This document shows positions 4,138 to 22,402 of a DNA stretch of 64,000 nucleotides, in pieces. The notes beneath the pieces were generated by a model. That model did no database searches. It worked only from the letters and a program-made list of their open reading frames with translations, and had not been told where the DNA came from. The DNA is from Lachnospiraceae bacterium (GTDB lineage: Bacteria > Bacillota > Clostridia > Lachnospirales > Lachnospiraceae), in the NCBI GenBank assembly GCA_051880395.1, contig JBJENW010000108.1, forward strand, positions 3,677 to 67,676. Reading direction: 5' to 3'. Position 1 is the first letter of the stretch. Each line of letters opens with the position of its first letter. A program made the position numbers and the translations under genes.

Positions 4138-4490
4138 GCGGACGTTTCCGGGATTTGGACAGACGCAGGTTACGGGACGGCAGCTTTCAGAGGGACCAGA
4201 CAAAAATGCAGTCAAGTTCGCGACGGGCCAATCTGCGATGCTTTATTTTTGCTGTTTTCCGAAGGTCGTACAGTCTGCACAAAGATGTACGCCAGAGCAA
4301 GACTCAAAGTCGGATTCTTTCTCTGGCGTACACCTTTGCACAGCCAGTCCGCCAATCGGCAAAACAGCAAAGGCATCGCAGATTGGCCCGTCGGAACTTA
4401 CTAGCATTTCTGTCAAGGTCCCTCTGAAAGCTGCCGTCCCGTAACCTGCGTCTGTCCAAATCCCGGAAACTGTGTATCGGAACCGAGAGG
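4138..4490. repeat. long hairpin-forming intergenic repeat, copy A
   Basis: The element starts with GCGGACGTTTCCGGGA and ends with TCCCGGAAACTGTGTATCGGAACCGAGAGG. The arm GGACAGACGCAGGTTACGGGACGGCAGCTTTCAGAGGGACC pairs perfectly with its reverse complement about 250 nt downstream. The core is shared with copies B and C. Confidence 0.85.
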
Positions 4491-4766
4491 TTATATTTTT
4501 TGAAAATGAAAAGTATAAATCTTACATGCAGAATATCGTTTCGATCACTTTTCATATACTGACAGATCTCAGCCGCATAACCGCAGGATTTATCTGTATA
4601 AAAAATATGCGAGACCTTATGCAGTTCGTAAAATTTGTGATGAATTTTGAATACATTACGTTTTCTTAAGAAACATATTTTAATCTTTTGCAACTGATTA
4701 TTGGAAACGAGAGGTTAAAATCTGTTTCGTTTGCACCAGAAAGTTGTGGCCATAGAAAATTCACTG

Positions 4767-5122
4767 TCTTTCGGTTCCAATACACAGTTTCCGGGATTCG
4801 GCGGGGAGATTCGCACTGGGGATGGCTGGTTCAAAAGTGGCTTTGACAGAAATGTTAGTGAGCTCGGGCGGGTAAAATTGCGATGCCTTTGCTGTCTTGC
4901 CGTAAGGCGGAAAGGCTGTGCGGATTTGTACGCCAGAGAAAGAATCCGCTTTTGAGTCTTACTCTGGCGTACAAATCCGTGCAGACTGTCCGACATACGG
5001 AAGACAGCAAAAATAAAGCATCGCAATTTTGCCCGTCCGAACTCGACTTCATTTCTGTCTAGCCACTTTTGAACCAGCCATCCCCAGTGCAAATCTCCCC
5101 GCCGAATCCCGGAAACGTCCGC
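4767..5122. repeat. long hairpin-forming intergenic repeat, copy B (inverted relative to A)
   Basis: The element starts with CTTTCGGTTCCAATACACAGTTTCCGGGA and ends with TCCCGGAAACGTCCGC. Its outer stem CGGCGGGGAGATTCGCACTGGGGATGGCTGGTTCAAAAGTGGC is self-complementary but unrelated in sequence to the stem of A. Confidence 0.85.
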
Positions 5123-7373: not shown

Positions 7374-7991
7374 TTAATTACCTCCTGCCAATACATTTCT
7401 GAAATAACACATACCAGCATCAACACCATAAGTCATCGCCTTCGATGTGATCGTAGCTCCACTGATCGCCTCGATCGGATCACTTGCAGAAGCGTCTACT
7501 TTGCTGACTTCTAAATAACTGTCCGGCGCAGAAAAGGTATGATCTTTAAACTGATCCATAAAAGCGGATTCTTTCGCTTTCATACCAAGTCCGGCTGTTT
7601 CACTGATATCTGTAATGGAATAACCATTTAACGTTCCGTCTTCTTTCACACCCATGGAGAAAGAAATGTCTCCGCCATATCCTGCATGACTCGTCACATT
7701 TAATACATACCCCAGGATCGTTCCACTGGAATCTTTTGCAGCTACCACACTTGTAATGTCATCATCTGCATAACCATTATCTGCTAAAACTTTTTCTGCT
7801 TCCTGTGTGTCAATGTCTACATCTTCAAATGTTTCCGCAGAATCAAAAACAGCTTTGTAAGCTTCTTGTGTCGCTTTTGCATTGGCATCTGCAATCGGCT
7901 GTTTTGTCACATTGTATACCAATCCTAATGCTGTACCGGCAACAAGTGTGATGAGCGTTAGAAGTAGTGCATCTTTTACGACTTTATTCAT
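7374..7991 (-). CDS. rnfG: Rnf complex subunit G (FMN-binding)
   Basis: N-terminal TM anchor plus an SGATITS flavin-attachment motif, in the expected operon position. Confidence 0.88.
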   Translation of the reverse strand: MNKVVKDALLLTLITLVAGTALGLVYNVTKQPIADANAKATQEAYKAVFDSAETFEDVDIDTQEAEKVLADNGYADDDITSVVAAKDSSGTILGYVLNVTSHAGYGGDISFSMGVKEDGTLNGYSITDISETAGLGMKAKESAFMDQFKDHTFSAPDSYLEVSKVDASASDPIEAISGATITSKAMTYGVDAGMCYFRNVLAGGN

Positions 7992-8965: not shown

Positions 8966-10288
8966 TTAATTTTTCTTTCTCTTTTCTGCCAAGATCAGTT
9001 TCTTTTCCGTCTTGATCGACTGTGCTAACTGCCGTCTTGCCGGACAAATAAAGCTGCAGCTTCCGCATTCAATACATTCTAGGCCATGCCATTTTTCAAA
9101 CTGATCCGCCTGTTTATTTTCAGAAAAATCAGCCAAACGAGAAGGCACAAGCTGCTCCGGACATGCTTCCACACAGCGTCCACAGTTGATACAAGCCGTT
9201 GTCTCATATGCTGCTACCTCATCTTTTGTCATGGCAAGTAGTGCAGACGTTGTCTTTGTTGTTGGGACTTCTAAACCAAACATCGAAAATCCCATCATCG
9301 GGCCTCCGGCAATAATTTTTTCCGGCTGCTCCTTAAACCCACCGGCAGCGTCTAATAACTCCTGAAAACTGGTTCCGATATTAAAATAAAAGTTTCCTGG
9401 ATTTTCTACCGCATTTCCTGTTACGGTAAAGATTCGGTGCATCACCGGCTGCCCTAACATAACCGCATTGTAAATAGAGATCATCGTCTCCACATTATCA
9501 ACGATACAGCCCGCATCTGCCGGCAGCATTTTCGAATTGATCGAACGTTTTGTTGTCGCATAGATTAACTGACGTTCTCCACCCTGCGGATATTTTGTCC
9601 GAAGCGGTACCACTTCAATGCGTGGCTCATCTTTTGTCAATTCTGTCAGCTTCTCGATACAATCTTTTTTGTTGTCCTCGATACCAAGAAGACCTTTTGC
9701 ATGATCAAACAGTTTCAGAACAATTTTCATACCTGCAATCAATTTTTCCGGATTTTCAATCATACGACGATAATCGGATGTCAGATATGGCTCACATTCT
9801 GCGCAGTTTGCAATAATGTAATCAATTTTTTCCGGTTCTTTTGGTGAGAGTTTCACATGTGTCGGGAATCCGGCACCTCCCATTCCGACGACACCGGCTT
9901 CTTTGATTCGGTTAACAATTTCTTCTTTGGATAATGCATCCAGATTTTCTGCCGGATGATACTCCACTTCGTTAAATTCTCCATCGCTTTCGATCACGAT
10001 AGATGTTACCATGTCGCCTACTGCAACACGTCTCGGTTCAATCGCCTTTACTGTTCCCGATACGGAAGAATAAATCGGCGCGGATACAAATCCACCGGCT
10101 TCGGCAATTTTCTGTCCTTTTAAAACCGTGTCTCCTACTGCCACAATCGGCTTTGCCGGCGCACCTATGTGCTGTGAAACCGGATAAACAAGTTCGCCTT
10201 TGGGCAATACTTCCTGGACAGGTTTATCTTTGGATAAATCTTTACCGTCATAGGGATGGACTCCACCTTTAAAAGTACTTAAACCCAT
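8966..10288 (-). CDS. rnfC: Rnf complex subunit C (NADH-binding, 2x[4Fe-4S])
   Basis: 440 aa with MGGAGFPTHVK and CINCGRCVEACP / CIECGSCSFICP motifs. It is the first gene of the operon. Confidence 0.9.
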   Translation of the reverse strand: MGLSTFKGGVHPYDGKDLSKDKPVQEVLPKGELVYPVSQHIGAPAKPIVAVGDTVLKGQKIAEAGGFVSAPIYSSVSGTVKAIEPRRVAVGDMVTSIVIESDGEFNEVEYHPAENLDALSKEEIVNRIKEAGVVGMGGAGFPTHVKLSPKEPEKIDYIIANCAECEPYLTSDYRRMIENPEKLIAGMKIVLKLFDHAKGLLGIEDNKKDCIEKLTELTKDEPRIEVVPLRTKYPQGGERQLIYATTKRSINSKMLPADAGCIVDNVETMISIYNAVMLGQPVMHRIFTVTGNAVENPGNFYFNIGTSFQELLDAAGGFKEQPEKIIAGGPMMGFSMFGLEVPTTKTTSALLAMTKDEVAAYETTACINCGRCVEACPEQLVPSRLADFSENKQADQFEKWHGLECIECGSCSFICPARRQLAQSIKTEKKLILAEKRKKN

Positions 10289-10490: not shown

Positions 10491-10520
10491 TTGACAAAAA
10501 ATATCTTAACCTGCTAAGAT
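10491..10520 (+). promoter_or_regulatory. candidate sigma-A promoter for the exonuclease leader
   Basis: TTGACA (10491-10496), an 18-nt spacer, then TAAGAT (10515-10520). A second TGnTATACT extended -10 lies at 10549-10557. Confidence 0.35.
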
Positions 10521-10575
10521 ACATTGCTTGTTTTCTAAAAAGATTTTGTGGTATACTAGAGTACAGCAAGATGCA

Positions 10576-10776
10576 CTCTCAAAGCTCTTTATCCTTGATT
10601 TTGAGAGTTCATACATAATGTTTTCTCGGAATCTCTTTGTGCTTGATTTTGTGAGATGATTTTTTGTCAGATGTGCACAAATTTATGAGGCGTACGTGGA
10701 GCGTACGTTGATTAAATTTGTGTGCATCTGACGGAAAATCATCCGCAAAAGCGGGCGCAAGGGAGATTCCGAGAGA
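10576..10776 (+). promoter_or_regulatory. structured 5' leader: a small hairpin (10576-10607) plus a ~154-nt hairpin (10623-10776)
   Basis: I paired arms 10623-10696 and 10702-10776 by hand. The result is about 70 paired positions, about 13 of them G.U on the plus strand and none A.C. The hairpin ends 25 nt before the ATG at 10802. Confidence 0.55.
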
Positions 10777-10801
10777 ACATCAAAAAAGGAGGAGGCTTTT
10801 T

Positions 10802-11947
10802 ATGCAAATCTGGCAAACAGAAACAAAATTGACAACGAAAGATTTGGAATATCTCACTTTTTTCCCAGAAAATGCGACTTTTTTTGACATCGAAACCACT
10901 GGTTTTTCTGCCGGACATGCCATCTGTTATCTGATCGGATGCGCATCCCGAAAAGAAAATCGTCTATTGATCACGCAGTTTTTTGCGGATCAGATAATTG
11001 ATGAGCAGAATGTTTTAGAAGCATTTCTGGCATATATCGCTGATTTCCAAATATTGATCTCTTTTAATGGAACCGGATTTGATCTCCCGTTTTTACAAAA
11101 ACGCTGTGAAATGCTATCGCTCCCGGTGGATTTTACAAATTTCCAGCAGACGGATATTTTTAAAGAAGTATCCGCGCTCAAAGAAGTCTTTTGTCTTCCA
11201 AATTACAAACAAAAAGCCATTGAAGCATTTCTTGGAATCATGCGCGAAGATCAATATAACGGCGGAGAACTGATCAACCAATATTTTTCCTATGAGAAAA
11301 CACAAGATTCCAAACTGCTTTCCCTTTTAAAACTGCACAATTACGAGGATGTTCTTGGAATGACCAAGCTGCTTCCCATTTTTTCTTATATTTCCTTTTT
11401 TCAGGGGAATTTTCACATTGCATCGCTTGAAAAGAACACGTTTACGGATTATGCAGGCGAGAAAAAGGAAGAAATGCTGTTTTCACTCACCTGTGATCTG
11501 ACCTTTCCAAAACGCCTCACCTGTCGTAAAGATGGAATTCATATGGTTTTTTCCAAAAATATTGTACAATTCTCTGTCCCAATTTATTCAGGAGAATTGA
11601 AATTTTTCTATCAGAATTACAAAGACTACTATTATCTTCCAAAGGAAGATATGGCCATTCACAAGAGTGTTGCGTTTTATGTCGATAAAAATTATCGAAC
11701 ACAAGCGAAGGCTGCCACTTGCTACAGCAAAAAGACCGGTTGTTTTTTGCCACAGTTTGATGACGTGATCTCGCCCTATTTTAAACTTGAATATAATGAC
11801 ACACACTCTTATTTTGAATGCACGCGTGAATTCTATGAATCGGATGACGATGTCAAACGCTATTGCATGCATATTCTCCATCATTTTCTCGAAAAAAAGA
11901 AGCAATCAAAAACCTCAAAAAAGACAAAAAAGCCGATTGTCGGATAA
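10802..11947 (+). CDS. RNase H-like / DnaQ-type 3'-5' exonuclease domain protein (YprB-like)
   Basis: FFDIETTGFS (ExoI DxE motif) lies near the N-terminus. I set the start at MQIWQTE, behind the AAGGAGGAGG RBS. The longer ORF start lies inside the leader hairpin. Confidence 0.6.
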   Translation: MQIWQTETKLTTKDLEYLTFFPENATFFDIETTGFSAGHAICYLIGCASRKENRLLITQFFADQIIDEQNVLEAFLAYIADFQILISFNGTGFDLPFLQKRCEMLSLPVDFTNFQQTDIFKEVSALKEVFCLPNYKQKAIEAFLGIMREDQYNGGELINQYFSYEKTQDSKLLSLLKLHNYEDVLGMTKLLPIFSYISFFQGNFHIASLEKNTFTDYAGEKKEEMLFSLTCDLTFPKRLTCRKDGIHMVFSKNIVQFSVPIYSGELKFFYQNYKDYYYLPKEDMAIHKSVAFYVDKNYRTQAKAATCYSKKTGCFLPQFDDVISPYFKLEYNDTHSYFECTREFYESDDDVKRYCMHILHHFLEKKKQSKTSKKTKKPIVG

Positions 11948-11970
11948 CTTTCCGACAATCGGCTTTTTTT
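11926..11970. terminator. bidirectional intrinsic terminator (exonuclease gene / cheR)
   Basis: The hairpin AGCCGATTGTCGG...CCGACAATCGGCT is flanked by an A-run and a T-run, between convergent genes. Confidence 0.8.
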
Positions 11971-12745
11971 ATATTTTTTCAAAAAAGAAAGACTGTTTCC
12001 TTGCATAATTCAACTCTTTATAATTTATGATCTGCTCTGTGCTACCGATGAAAAGAATTCCTCCCGGTTTCAAAGCTTCATTGAATTTGCGATAAATCTC
12101 TTCTTTTGCTTCTTCTGTAAAGTAAATCAATACATTCCGGCATACAATCAGATTGCAGCCTTGCGGGTACGGATCTTTTAACAAATTATGTTCTTTAAAA
12201 TCCACACGCGACTTAATCTCATTTGAAATTTGATAAGAAGGTCCTACTTTTGTAAAATACTTCTTTTTCAAATCCTCTGGCACAGCTGCGATACTTTTCT
12301 CATTGTACAGACCTACACGTGCTTTTTCCAGCACTTGCTTATCAATATCCGTTGCAGTGATTCGAATCTGATTCAACGGCATAAACCGTGATAATGCCAT
12401 CACCAGTGAATATGGTTCATCTCCTGTTGAACAGGCAGCACTCCAAATCTTCAGGTTTTTGCCAAATTTCTGAATCAGTTCCGGGAATACCTGCTGTTCC
12501 AAAAGTTTCCATTGTTCCGGATTTCGATAAAACTCCGAAACATTGATCGTAAGAAAATTGACAAACTGATCAAACTTTTGTTTGTCTTTTTTGATCATCT
12601 GCACATACGCATCGTAAGAATTTGCACCATTTTTTGTAAGCAGCGTATCAATTCGCCGACGCATCTGTTTCTCCTTATAAGAATTCAGATCAATTTTCGT
12701 CAATGCGAATACATCTTTTTTGAATTTTTCATACCCTTCAAACAT
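11969..12745 (-). CDS. cheR: chemotaxis protein methyltransferase CheR
   Basis: 258 aa with EFYRNPEQW (the CheR TxFFR-type motif) and the SAM-binding segment IWSAACSTGDEPYS. Confidence 0.88.
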   Translation of the reverse strand: MFEGYEKFKKDVFALTKIDLNSYKEKQMRRRIDTLLTKNGANSYDAYVQMIKKDKQKFDQFVNFLTINVSEFYRNPEQWKLLEQQVFPELIQKFGKNLKIWSAACSTGDEPYSLVMALSRFMPLNQIRITATDIDKQVLEKARVGLYNEKSIAAVPEDLKKKYFTKVGPSYQISNEIKSRVDFKEHNLLKDPYPQGCNLIVCRNVLIYFTEEAKEEIYRKFNEALKPGGILFIGSTEQIINYKELNYARKQSFFFEKI

Positions 12746-21749: not shown

Positions 21750-21947
21750 GCGGACGTTTCGCAACACGCCGGGCATCTCTGCGAAAAACACGGCTCCTGT
21801 TCAGGTAAGCTAACTCTTAAGATTCTCTAAGACACTCAGGATCGCCTTCGTGCCTAAGAGAATCTAAAGAGTGGATCTCACCTGCACCCGCCGAAACGTT
21901 TTTTCGCAGAGATGCCCGGCGTGTTGCGAAACTGTGTACTGGAAACG
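21750..21947. repeat. hairpin repeat, copy D (same ends as A, different interior)
   Basis: Ends GCGGACGTTTC...GAAACTGTGTACTGGAAACG. The 33-bp outer stem GTTTCGCAACACGCCGGGCATCTCTGCGAAAAA pairs perfectly with TTTTTCGCAGAGATGCCCGGCGTGTTGCGAAAC. Confidence 0.8.
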
Positions 21948-21975
21948 GAAAAGATCTCAACCAATCGGTTTCATT

Positions 21976-22062
21976 ACACAGTTTTCGGTATCCGGCAGGA
22001 GGCAAGGACCGGAAACTGTGTATTGGAAACGCTAGGTTGAAATATCTTAACCTCCCGTTTCC
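21976..22062. repeat. minimal copies of the same repeat ends (two short hairpins)
   Basis: First hairpin: ACACAGTTTTCGGT...ACCGGAAACTGTGTATTGGAAACG. Second hairpin: GGAAACGCTAGGTT...AACCTCCCGTTTCC. Confidence 0.6.
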
Positions 22063-22066
22063 GATA

Positions 22067-22402
22067 GACAGTTTCCGAAATTTGGCTGGGTGGGCAAGGC
22101 GGGGCGGCTGCTTTCAGAAGGGCTTTGACAGAAATGTTAGTGAGTTTGGGTGGACAAATCTGCGATGCCTTTGCTGTTTTGCCGAGAGGCGTACAAGCTG
22201 TGCGTAGGTGTATGCGGGAGAAAGAGTCCGCTTCTGAGTCTTTCTCCCACATACACCTGCGTGCAGCTTGTACGACATTCGGAAAACTGCAAAAATAAAG
22301 CATCGCAGATTTGCCCGCCCAAACTCGACTTCATTTCTGTCTAGCCCTTCTGAAAGCAGCCGCCCCGCCTTGCCCATCCAGCCAAATTTCGGAAACGTCC
22401 GC
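22067..22402. repeat. long hairpin-forming intergenic repeat, copy C (same orientation and core as B)
   Basis: GACAGTTTCCGAAATTTGGCTGGGTGGGCAAGGCGGGGCGGCTGCTTTCAGAAGGGC pairs with its complement and ends GGAAACGTCCGC. The core TTTGACAGAAATGTTAGTGAG...TGCGATGCCTTTGCTGT is shared with B. Confidence 0.85.

What the first reader, a model, noticed from the sequence alone, without database searches (positions are those of the whole stretch)
10576..10776. Leader hairpin with a ~70-bp stem and strictly one-sided G.U wobble pairing upstream of the DnaQ-like exonuclease gene
Arms 10623-10696 and 10702-10776 pair almost end to end around a CGTACG-TGGAG-CGTACG tip.

When I paired them by hand, almost every deviation from Watson-Crick pairing was a G.U pair read on the plus strand. 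There are about 13 of these. Examples are left-arm TT against right-arm GG at 10664-65/10733-34, 10643-44/10753-54 and 10636-37/10761-62, plus the swapped TG/TG at 10674-75/10723-24.

I found no A.C pairs, which is what G.U pairs would look like on the other strand. The remaining exceptions are one 3x3 internal loop, one A.G mismatch and two single-nucleotide bulges.

A DNA-level palindrome would give no reason for this strand asymmetry. It is what an RNA hairpin transcribed in the plus direction would show. That is the direction of the downstream gene, and candidate promoters lie at 10491-10557.

A smaller hairpin at 10576-10607 shares the CTCTTT-TGATTTTGAGAG motif. The structure ends 25 nt before the start codon and leaves the RBS free. 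A very long perfect-plus-wobble duplex could be an RNase III substrate, a stabiliser or a regulatory element. I do not recognise it as a known riboswitch.
Basis: seen in the sequence. Interest (0 to 1): 0.6.

Follow-up and report, generated by a model that had tools for sequence, protein, structure and literature searches.

The report
Mobile hairpin repeat beside ribosome-binding site
The long "leader hairpin" is one copy of an undescribed 163-bp mobile repeat (a MITE) of gut Lachnospiraceae that, like its parent insertion sequence, lands about 11 bases upstream of ribosome-binding sites, so it is not a control element special to this gene.

Summary
The hairpin is real. It has a 75-pair stem at 10618-10780 with 13 G.U pairs and no A.C pairs. 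As RNA the plus strand folds to -125 kcal/mol and the minus strand to -89.

It is not a gene-specific leader. The closest syntenic orthologues lack it. Its 20-nt core recurs in 90 stretches of at least 20 Lachnospiraceae assemblies.

The 92 full copies have 18-bp terminal inverted repeats. Sixty-three of them have 4-5-bp target duplications. Their ends match those of a 1.8-kb insertion sequence whose transposase is distantly IS1182-like.

Both elements sit 10-12 nt from a GGAGG motif: 70/92 MITE copies and 51/59 IS copies. The small hairpin at 10571-10612 is an internally deleted copy.

The one-sided wobble belongs to the whole family (916 G.U against 115 A.C cells). It does not depend on orientation to the neighbouring gene (32 sense, 38 antisense). 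Its match with the gene's direction here is therefore chance.

The element probably lies in the 5' UTR and is a plausible RNase III substrate. This is untested.

The family, its targeting of ribosome-binding sites and the strand-specific wobble appear undescribed.

The parts
10491..10520 (+). Promoter-like site upstream of both repeat copies (TTGACA, 18 nt, TAAGAT, preceded by TG). It is the likely promoter of the RNase_H_2 gene.
   Evidence: Consensus scan, 10 of 12 matches. Not verified by transcript data.
10571..10612 (+). Mini copy of the same MITE (ATGCACTCTC...GAGAGTTCAT).
   Evidence: 81% direct repeat with 10630-10660. The same 42-60-nt deletion forms occur in L016, L076, L075 (two), L066 and others.
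10614..10617 (.). Left copy of the presumed 4-bp target-site duplication (CATA).
   Evidence: Matches the right copy CAAA at 3 of 4 positions. Family-wide, 63 of 92 copies have exact 4-5-bp duplications.
10618..10780 (+). Full 163-bp MITE copy, which is the long hairpin. Left arm 10618-10696, loop 10697-10701, right arm 10702-10780. Terminal inverted repeats at 10618-10635 and 10763-10780.
   Evidence: Fold. TIR 18 nt, 94% complementary (I2). Full-length nhmmer hit to the family model, at most 92.6% identical to sampled copies.
10781..10784 (.). Right copy of the presumed target-site duplication (CAAA).
10788..10795 (+). Host Shine-Dalgarno sequence GGAGGAGG. Its two GGAGG registers start 7 and 10 nt after the element end. 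The family's preferred spacing is 10-12 nt.
   Evidence: Sequence. Spacing statistics.
10802..11947 (+). RNase_H_2 (YprB-like, DnaQ-fold) exonuclease gene, 381 aa. The gene next to the insertion target.
   Evidence: Pfam PF13482, E 4.1e-33. Orthologues at 58-62% identity in conserved synteny.

Best explanation
The hairpin is a copy of a non-autonomous transposable element (a MITE, about 163 bp). The element is mobilised by a 1.8-kb insertion sequence of Lachnospiraceae whose roughly 496-aa DDE transposase is distantly IS1182-like.

Shown:
- The family has 18-bp terminal inverted repeats, 4-5-bp A/T-rich target duplications and many dispersed copies.
- Its ends match those of the IS.
- Both the IS and the MITE sit 10-12 bp (mode 11) upstream of a GGAGG ribosome-binding motif.

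At this locus the element landed in front of the RBS of the RNase_H_2 gene, downstream of its promoter-like site and next to an older, internally deleted copy.

The whole element is a hairpin whose non-Watson-Crick positions are G.U on one strand only. That is a conserved family trait. Stem positions evolve U-A <-> U.G <-> C-G and hardly ever pass through A.C.

Inferred:
- The lineages that give rise to new copies are selected for folding of the plus-sense single strand, most likely RNA. The wobble pairs would also keep the DNA from being a perfect, unstable palindrome.
- Here the element is co-transcribed in the 5' UTR in the G.U-competent orientation and folds back on itself, leaving the RBS free. 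The insertion is therefore tolerated.
- A 75-bp duplex is an expected RNase III substrate, so it may alter leader processing or mRNA stability. That would be a by-product, not an evolved control of this gene.
For: Multi-copy and dispersed:
- The 20-nt core occurs in 90 stretches of at least 20 Lachnospiraceae assemblies, with at least 27 in Otoolea muris DSM 111138 and 8 in Hungatella effluvii.
- The whole 163 bp aligns across copies.

Transposition signatures:
- Exact 4-bp duplications in 47 and 5-bp in 15 of 92 copies, against about 3 in shuffled controls.
- TIRs.

Parent IS:
- L025 142-1970 has TIRs ATAATCTCTCGGAATC...GATTCCGAGAGTTCAT and one ORF. The ORF matches the IS1182 model at E 4.4e-16 and DDE_Tnp_1(_6) weakly.
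- 161 relatives were found, and 71 of the 80 kept have both TIRs about 1.8 kb apart.
- MITE and IS ends agree at 13-14 of the first 16 nt. Two IS copies end ...GAGAGTACAT exactly like the MITE.

Targeting:
- An SD core lies 8-13 nt from one end in 70/92 MITE copies, at exactly 11 nt in 45.
- It lies 10-12 nt outside IRL in 51/59 IS copies and beside IRR in almost none.
- Start codons lie 20-27 nt away.

Not gene-specific:
- Absent from syntenic orthologues.

Family-wide asymmetry:
- WC 5105, G.U 916, A.C 115 cells.
- 85 of 87 copies are more stable as + RNA (median -96 against -68 kcal/mol).

Covariation:
- 28 pairs have double changes, and 0 of 500 shuffles reach this.

Transcription:
- Family members occur in mouse-gut metatranscriptome assemblies.
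Against: - No transcript data exist for this locus. The RNA runs found hold only other family members, as unstranded contigs that may include DNA.
- The window copy's target duplication is imperfect (CATA/CAAA). Its spacing to the first GGAGG is 7 nt, and 10 nt only to the second register.
Only one full and one mini copy lie in the 64-kb window.
- The transposase assignment rests on sub-threshold HMM hits plus TIR and duplication evidence. RefSeq calls a member 'hypothetical protein'.
- The cause of the G.U asymmetry is inferred. The asymmetry also holds with DNA parameters, so a single-stranded DNA step is not excluded.
- Recent within-subfamily changes are only mildly biased (43 to G.U against 26 to A.C).
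Confidence: 0.87

Rival explanations
1. This is a gene-specific regulatory leader RNA. On this view the hairpin evolved, or was domesticated, to control the DnaQ-like/YprB-like exonuclease gene, for example as an RNase III-dependent stability switch.
For: - It lies between a promoter-like site and the RBS in the G.U-competent orientation.
- The window copy is among the more stable family members (rank 10 of 87, -106.6 kcal/mol) and has no A.C pair.
Against: - Absent from all syntenic orthologues examined.
- The sequence is a dispersed transposon copy.
- Sense and antisense copies are equally common and have equal G.U/A.C content, so there is no sign of selection at the insertion site.
- No Rfam family matches.
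Confidence: 0.07
2. The one-sided G.T/G.U pattern reflects a strand-specific single-stranded DNA step, not RNA. Such a step could be a hairpin on one strand during transposition or replication.
For: - The + strand is also the more stable strand with DNA parameters (-57.9 against -46.5 kcal/mol).
- The asymmetry does not depend on the direction of host transcription.
- One copy (L100) shows arm-to-arm conversion at the DNA level.
Against: - The element has TIRs and variable target duplications, which are typical of double-stranded DDE transposition. Single-strand transposons of the IS200/IS605 type have neither.
- G.T pairs add little stability in DNA.
- Insertion orientation shows no bias relative to genes. 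In Firmicutes gene direction tracks replication direction, so no link to replication is visible.
Confidence: 0.2
3. The asymmetry is a mutational artefact, for example C-to-T deamination of one strand in an ancestral perfect palindrome, and has no selective meaning.
For: - Recent within-subfamily single changes are only modestly biased (43 against 26).
- Individual insertions show no effect of orientation.
Against: - The family consensus has 11 G.U and 0 A.C pairs (two-sided p about 0.001 under symmetry).
- The same wobble positions are kept across diverged subfamilies in different genera.
- Covarying pairs run U-A/U.G/C-G with almost no C.A, for example columns 36:131 with UA 24, UG 21, CG 17, CA 2.
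- A constant strand bias across many genomes, loci and orientations is unlikely.
Confidence: 0.1

Closest known systems
bcr1 repeats of the Bacillus cereus group (Okstad 2004; Klevan 2007; reviewed in PMC3184786)
   Same: A Firmicute element of about 155 bp that is dispersed, non-coding and flanked by 5-bp direct repeats. It is transcribed, and compensatory base changes maintain an RNA-level structure.
   Different: No sequence relation was tested or is evident. bcr1 folds as a two-hairpin cruciform-like shape, not one 75-bp stem. Its review entry names no parent IS and no RBS-proximal targeting.
Correia/NEMIS elements of Neisseria and ERIC/IRU elements of enterobacteria
   Same: MITE-type repeats that fold into long RNA hairpins when co-transcribed. 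Correia hairpins are cut by RNase III. ERIC effects on mRNA stability depend on orientation.
   Different: They occur in Proteobacteria and have different sequences and targets. Correia uses TA, by my own knowledge. The sources read do not report a fixed spacing to the Shine-Dalgarno motif or strictly one-sided wobble pairing.
IS1182-family insertion sequences (DDE_Tnp_1 type transposases)
   Same: The parent IS encodes a single ORF that matches the IS1182 model over residues 244-479 (E 4.4e-16). It has TIRs and short target duplications.
   Different: The score of 58.8 bits is far below the family cut-off of 270. RefSeq annotates a member as a hypothetical protein. Orientation-specific insertion 11 bp upstream of GGAGG was not found described.
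Neisseria REP2 and Borrelia IR repeats (PMC3184786)
   Same: Repeats found immediately upstream of many unrelated genes.
   Different: Those repeats carry the promoter, RBS and ATG themselves and lack TIRs. Here the RBS is host sequence outside the target duplication.
IS200/IS605-derived palindromic elements and REP/RAYT systems
   Same: Hairpin-forming repeats in which one strand matters.
   Different: By established knowledge those make no target duplication and have no TIRs. Here 63 of 92 copies have 4-5-bp duplications.

Membership tests
MITE (non-autonomous derivative of a DDE insertion sequence) | Small and non-coding | tested here: met
   163 bp, entirely stem-loop. No ORF beyond a 13-codon artefact of the palindromic ATG...CAT ends.
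MITE (non-autonomous derivative of a DDE insertion sequence) | Terminal inverted repeats | tested here: met
   10618-10635 and 10763-10780, 18 nt, 94% complementary. Conserved in the family.
MITE (non-autonomous derivative of a DDE insertion sequence) | Target-site duplication | tested here: met
   Family: 63 of 92 copies have exact duplications of at least 4 bp, against about 3 in the shuffled control. This copy matches at only 3 of 4 positions (CATA/CAAA).
MITE (non-autonomous derivative of a DDE insertion sequence) | Many dispersed copies at unrelated loci | tested here: met
   90 stretches in at least 20 assemblies, with at least 27 in one isolate genome.
MITE (non-autonomous derivative of a DDE insertion sequence) | Ends shared with an autonomous IS | tested here: met
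   13-14 of the first 16 nt are identical to the IS ends. There is the same 4-5-bp duplication and the same 10-12-nt spacing to GGAGG. IS and MITE occur on one contig (L025).
Gene-specific cis-regulatory leader RNA (riboswitch, attenuator or RNase III autoregulatory hairpin) | Conserved upstream of orthologous genes | tested here: not met
   Four orthologous syntenic loci have no hairpin and no model hit.
Gene-specific cis-regulatory leader RNA (riboswitch, attenuator or RNase III autoregulatory hairpin) | Match to a curated RNA family | tested here: not met
   Only sub-threshold hits to plant miRNA precursors, reflecting a generic long hairpin. Nothing reaches gathering score in the whole window.
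Gene-specific cis-regulatory leader RNA (riboswitch, attenuator or RNase III autoregulatory hairpin) | Transcribed and processed on the + strand at this locus | not testable with these tools
   No run holds this locus. Only unstranded contigs of other family members were found.
IS200/IS605-type palindromic elements or REP | No target duplication and no TIR; insertion next to a fixed tetra- or pentanucleotide | tested here: not met
   Variable 4-5-bp duplications flank the TIRs.
The roughly 330-bp palindromic repeat family of this same window (4144-5116, 21750-22400) | Shared end motifs (GGACGTTTCC...GGAAACTGTGT) or sequence similarity | tested here: not met
   The MITE model hits only 10618-10780 in the window. 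Those palindromes fold equally well on both strands, unlike this element.
IS1182 family (for the parent IS) | Transposase reaches the curated family score | tested here: not met
   58.8 bits against a cut-off of 270. The Pfam DDE domains are below gathering score. It works like a DDE IS, but membership in IS1182 proper is not shown.

The most novel reading that the evidence does not exclude
A widespread transposase family of gut Lachnospiraceae, so far unannotated (RefSeq: 'hypothetical protein'), reads the Shine-Dalgarno DNA motif itself. It integrates exactly about 11 bp upstream of it, and the full IS does so in one orientation. In addition, the success of its MITE depends on a plus-sense single-stranded form, probably RNA, which is why wobble pairs are kept on one strand only. 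If so, this would be a transposon that homes to ribosome-binding sites, and its non-autonomous form would be shaped by selection at the RNA level.
Probability: 0.3. Interest if true: 0.75.

Novelty: new variant of a known kind. Interest (0 to 1): 0.55.

Why it matters
At this locus the result removes a false lead. The hairpin is a transposon copy, not a new riboregulator of a DNA-repair exonuclease.

The family is of wider interest for three reasons:
- It places very stable 75-bp hairpins directly in front of the ribosome-binding sites of many unrelated genes in abundant gut bacteria. This can confuse RNA-motif discovery and may alter mRNA processing on a genomic scale.
- The sharp 11-bp spacing to GGAGG, shared by the MITE and its parent IS, points to sequence-directed target choice by a DDE-type transposase that current annotation misses. 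This can be tested and could be useful for targeted insertion.
- The strictly one-sided wobble pairing gives a clean case for asking whether bacterial MITEs are selected at the RNA level.

Tried and rejected
- **The 330-bp palindromes in the same window.** I considered whether the hairpin is a decayed member of that family. I rejected this because there is no model cross-hit, the ends differ, and those palindromes fold equally on both strands.
- **The apical loop UGGAG as a guide for the GGAGG target.** Rejected because the loop varies (GGAG, GGAA, GGAT, GGCG, GACA) and the parent IS, which has the same targeting, has no such hairpin.
- **Both MITE ends derived from IRL, to explain random orientation.** The consensus comparison is inconclusive at 13 against 14 of 16.
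- **Selection at the insertion site.** Sense and antisense copies have the same G.U/A.C counts.
- **RNA runs.** They hold only unstranded assemblies of other family members.
- **Literature.** Searches for MITEs in Lachnospiraceae, for SD-targeted insertion sequences and for IS1182 target choice found nothing relevant.
- **Transposase.** It has no relative among solved structures by sequence. Exact-sequence look-up worked only after I moved the start codon to the ATG behind its own GGAGG.

Full report
**1.

The region 10560-10810 folds as RNA to -125.4 kcal/mol on the + strand (z = -14.9 against dinucleotide shuffles). On the - strand it folds to -88.8 kcal/mol.

The stem has 75 pairs and runs from 10618 to 10780 around a 5-nt loop. 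It has 13 G.U pairs, 10 with U on the left arm and 3 with U on the right arm. It has no A.C pair.

The difference between strands also appears with DNA parameters, at -57.9 against -46.5.

Rfam has no family for it. The only hits are sub-threshold matches to plant miRNA precursors, which any long hairpin attracts. Nothing in the whole 64-kb window reaches a gathering score.

**2. Context.**

The hairpin lies in the 513-nt spacer between divergent rnfC (8966-10288, minus strand) and a 381-aa RNase_H_2 (YprB-like, DnaQ-fold) gene (10802-11947). Next come convergent cheR and ispH-rpsA.

A promoter-like site lies upstream at 10491-10520: TTGACA, 18 nt, TAAGAT, preceded by TG. The Shine-Dalgarno sequence GGAGGAGG (10788-10795) lies 7 nt after the stem.

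**3. It is not a conserved leader of this gene.**

The nearest homologues are 58-62% identical. They sit in the same synteny, with rnfD and rnfC on one side and cheR and ispH-S1 on the other. Their spacers are only 233-332 nt long and contain no such hairpin. The family model built later gives no hit in them.

**4. It is a dispersed repeat.**

I therefore scanned the genome collection for the 20-nt core GTCAGATGYRCACAAATTTA.

The scan found 90 stretches, all in Lachnospiraceae. They come from at least 20 assemblies. At least 27 are in Otoolea muris DSM 111138 and 8 in Hungatella effluvii DSM 24995.

The whole roughly 163-bp hairpin is conserved in them, not only the core. An nhmmer model recovered 92 non-redundant full copies and 15 partial ones.

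**5. It is a MITE.**

- Copies begin and end with inverted repeats (ATGTACTCTCGGAATCTC...GAGATTCCGAGAGTACAT).
- Exact direct repeats flank them: 4 bp in 47 copies and 5 bp in 15. In all, 63 of 92 copies have at least 4 bp, against about 3 of 92 when the flanks are shuffled. The repeats are A/T-rich.
- The window copy has CATA/CAAA.

It is the same element with its interior deleted between GAGA(T) direct repeats in the two arms. The same 42-60-nt form occurs in several other genomes.

Tandem copies that share one target duplication also occur, for example L016 with TATTC. This fits repeated use of the same target site.

**6. The parent element.**

A solo pair of matching ends 1.8 kb apart in L025 encloses one ORF. 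The ORF matches the IS1182 transposase model at E 4.4e-16 over residues 244-479. That score is below the curated cut-off. It also matches DDE_Tnp_1_6 and DDE_Tnp_1 weakly.

The genome collection holds 161 relatives. Of the 80 kept, 71 have both ends 1.79-1.82 kb apart, with the form ATAATCTCTCGGAATC...GATTCCGAGAGAT(C/T)AT. Among 59 non-redundant copies with enough flank, 32 have 4-5-bp duplications.

MITE and IS ends agree at 13-14 of their first 16 nt. Two IS copies end in ...GAGAGTACAT like the MITE.

RefSeq names a member 'hypothetical protein' (WP_405121521.1). The two 90%-identity clusters examined hold 8,704 and 937 sequences. The IS is therefore abundant but unannotated.

**7. Both elements sit at a fixed distance from ribosome-binding sites.**

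- In 70 of 92 MITE copies a GGAG/GAGG core lies 8-13 nt beyond one end. It is at exactly 11 nt in 45 copies and at 12 nt in 16.
- A start codon lies 21-27 nt away in 50 copies.
- For the IS, 51 of 59 copies have the motif 10-12 nt outside IRL, 34 of them at 11 nt. Essentially none have it beside IRR. The IS is therefore orientation-specific, with the transposase gene pointing away from the targeted gene.
- In 39 of 53 IS cases a gene start follows 20-26 nt from the IS end.

The target is thus a 4-5-nt W-rich duplication, then about 7 A-rich nt, then GGAGG. Selection alone would not give so sharp a spacing, so I infer that the transposition machinery chooses the target.

In the window the second GGAGG register of GGAGGAGG is 10 nt from the element end.

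I found no description of such targeting in the library searched, including a 2024 review of prokaryotic MITEs. Other notes of this scan describe analogous elements that home to start codons but derive from other transposase families. I did not check those notes.

**8. The one-sided wobble is a family trait.**

I applied the window's 75 pairs to 87 full-length copies.
- Cells: 5105 Watson-Crick, 916 G.U, 115 A.C and 342 other.
- Consensus: 11 G.U and 0 A.C pairs.
- 85 of 87 copies are more stable as + RNA, with medians of -96.2 and -68.4 kcal/mol.

The stem covaries strongly. On 59 consensus pairs, 95.3% of cells are paired, 28 pairs have changes on both sides, and 0 of 500 shuffles reach this.

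Covarying positions run U-A, U.G, C-G with almost no C.A. Examples are columns 36:131 (UA 24, UG 21, CG 17, CA 2) and 24:143 (UG 44, UA 15, CG 7, CA 1).

The asymmetry does not depend on the neighbouring gene. Thirty-two copies are sense and 38 antisense, and the two groups have the same G.U and A.C counts.

Recent within-subfamily single changes are only mildly biased, with 43 to G.U against 26 to A.C.

The wobble pattern was therefore not shaped at this locus. It is maintained in the lineages that produce new copies.

My best inference is selection on a plus-sense single strand, most likely RNA. The wobble pairs would also keep the DNA from being a perfect palindrome. A single-stranded DNA step or a mutational bias are weaker rivals.

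One copy (L100) has its right arm converted to the exact complement of the left arm. Arm-to-arm conversion at the DNA level therefore also occurs.

**9. What it does here.**

Shown: the element lies between a promoter-like site and the RBS, and the RBS is outside the stem.

Inferred:
- It is co-transcribed in the 5' UTR, where it folds on itself and leaves translation initiation accessible.
- A 75-bp duplex is the kind of substrate RNase III cuts, as reported for Correia elements. Leader processing or stability may therefore be affected.

Family members are present at high depth in mouse-gut metatranscriptome assemblies. Those data are unstranded, may contain DNA, and do not include this locus.

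**10. Verdict.**

The feature is a copy of an apparently undescribed MITE, accompanied by an internally deleted copy. The closest described analogue is bcr1 of the Bacillus cereus group, which is about 155 bp, has 5-bp direct repeats, is transcribed and shows compensatory changes.

What sets this family apart is the fixed 11-bp spacing to the Shine-Dalgarno motif, shared with its parent IS, and the strictly one-sided wobble pairing.

Limits:
- The copies were collected with an exact 20-nt core, so conservation of that core is built in by the search.
- Gene starts were called with a simple ORF rule.

Noticed in passing
window 4144-4470, 4787-5116, 21756-21932, 22071-22396: Near-perfect palindromes of about 330 bp (and one of about 180 bp). 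Their ends are conserved, and their outer stems differ between copies but are self-complementary. They fold about equally on both strands (-247 to -270 kcal/mol). This is a different family from the MITE studied here and is already covered by earlier notes e1-2959017 and e1-2959018.
   Followed up: partly
L100:1535-1697: In this MITE copy part of the right arm (AAAATCATCTCACAAAATCAGGCGCAGCGAG) is the exact reverse complement of the left arm. All wobble pairs there have become Watson-Crick, and it is the most stable copy at -127.6 kcal/mol. This looks like arm-to-arm conversion.
   Followed up: partly
L155:1252-2739 (Sellimonas caecigallum JCM 35759; at least 9 copies, L155-L162 and L180): The transposase of the parent IS is annotated 'hypothetical protein' in RefSeq (WP_405121521.1). 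The two 90%-identity clusters examined hold 8,704 and 937 sequences. This is an abundant IS family that annotation pipelines miss.
   Followed up: partly
L016:894-937, L076:6946-6991, L075:1661-1705 and 7807-7850, L066:5962-6003: Recurrent 42-60-nt mini forms of the MITE. The left arm up to GTGAGA(T) is joined to the last 5-15 nt of the right arm. They arose either by repeated deletion between short direct repeats or as a separately mobile mini subfamily.
   Followed up: partly
L023:1642-1792, L017:3722-3871, L057:3224-3375, L026:7166-7314: Variants of 149-152 bp that lack the apical CGTACG stem.
   Followed up: no
L016:6880-7075: Two MITE copies lie in tandem, both flanked by the same 5-bp TATTC next to one RBS. 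This is expected if the duplicated target is hit a second time.
   Followed up: partly
window 11919-12031: An A-run, GC-rich hairpin and T-run between the convergent RNase_H_2 gene and cheR (AAAAAAAGCCGATTGTCGG...CCGACAATCGGCTTTTTT). It looks like a bidirectional intrinsic terminator and drew weak snoRNA-like Rfam hits on both strands.
   Followed up: no
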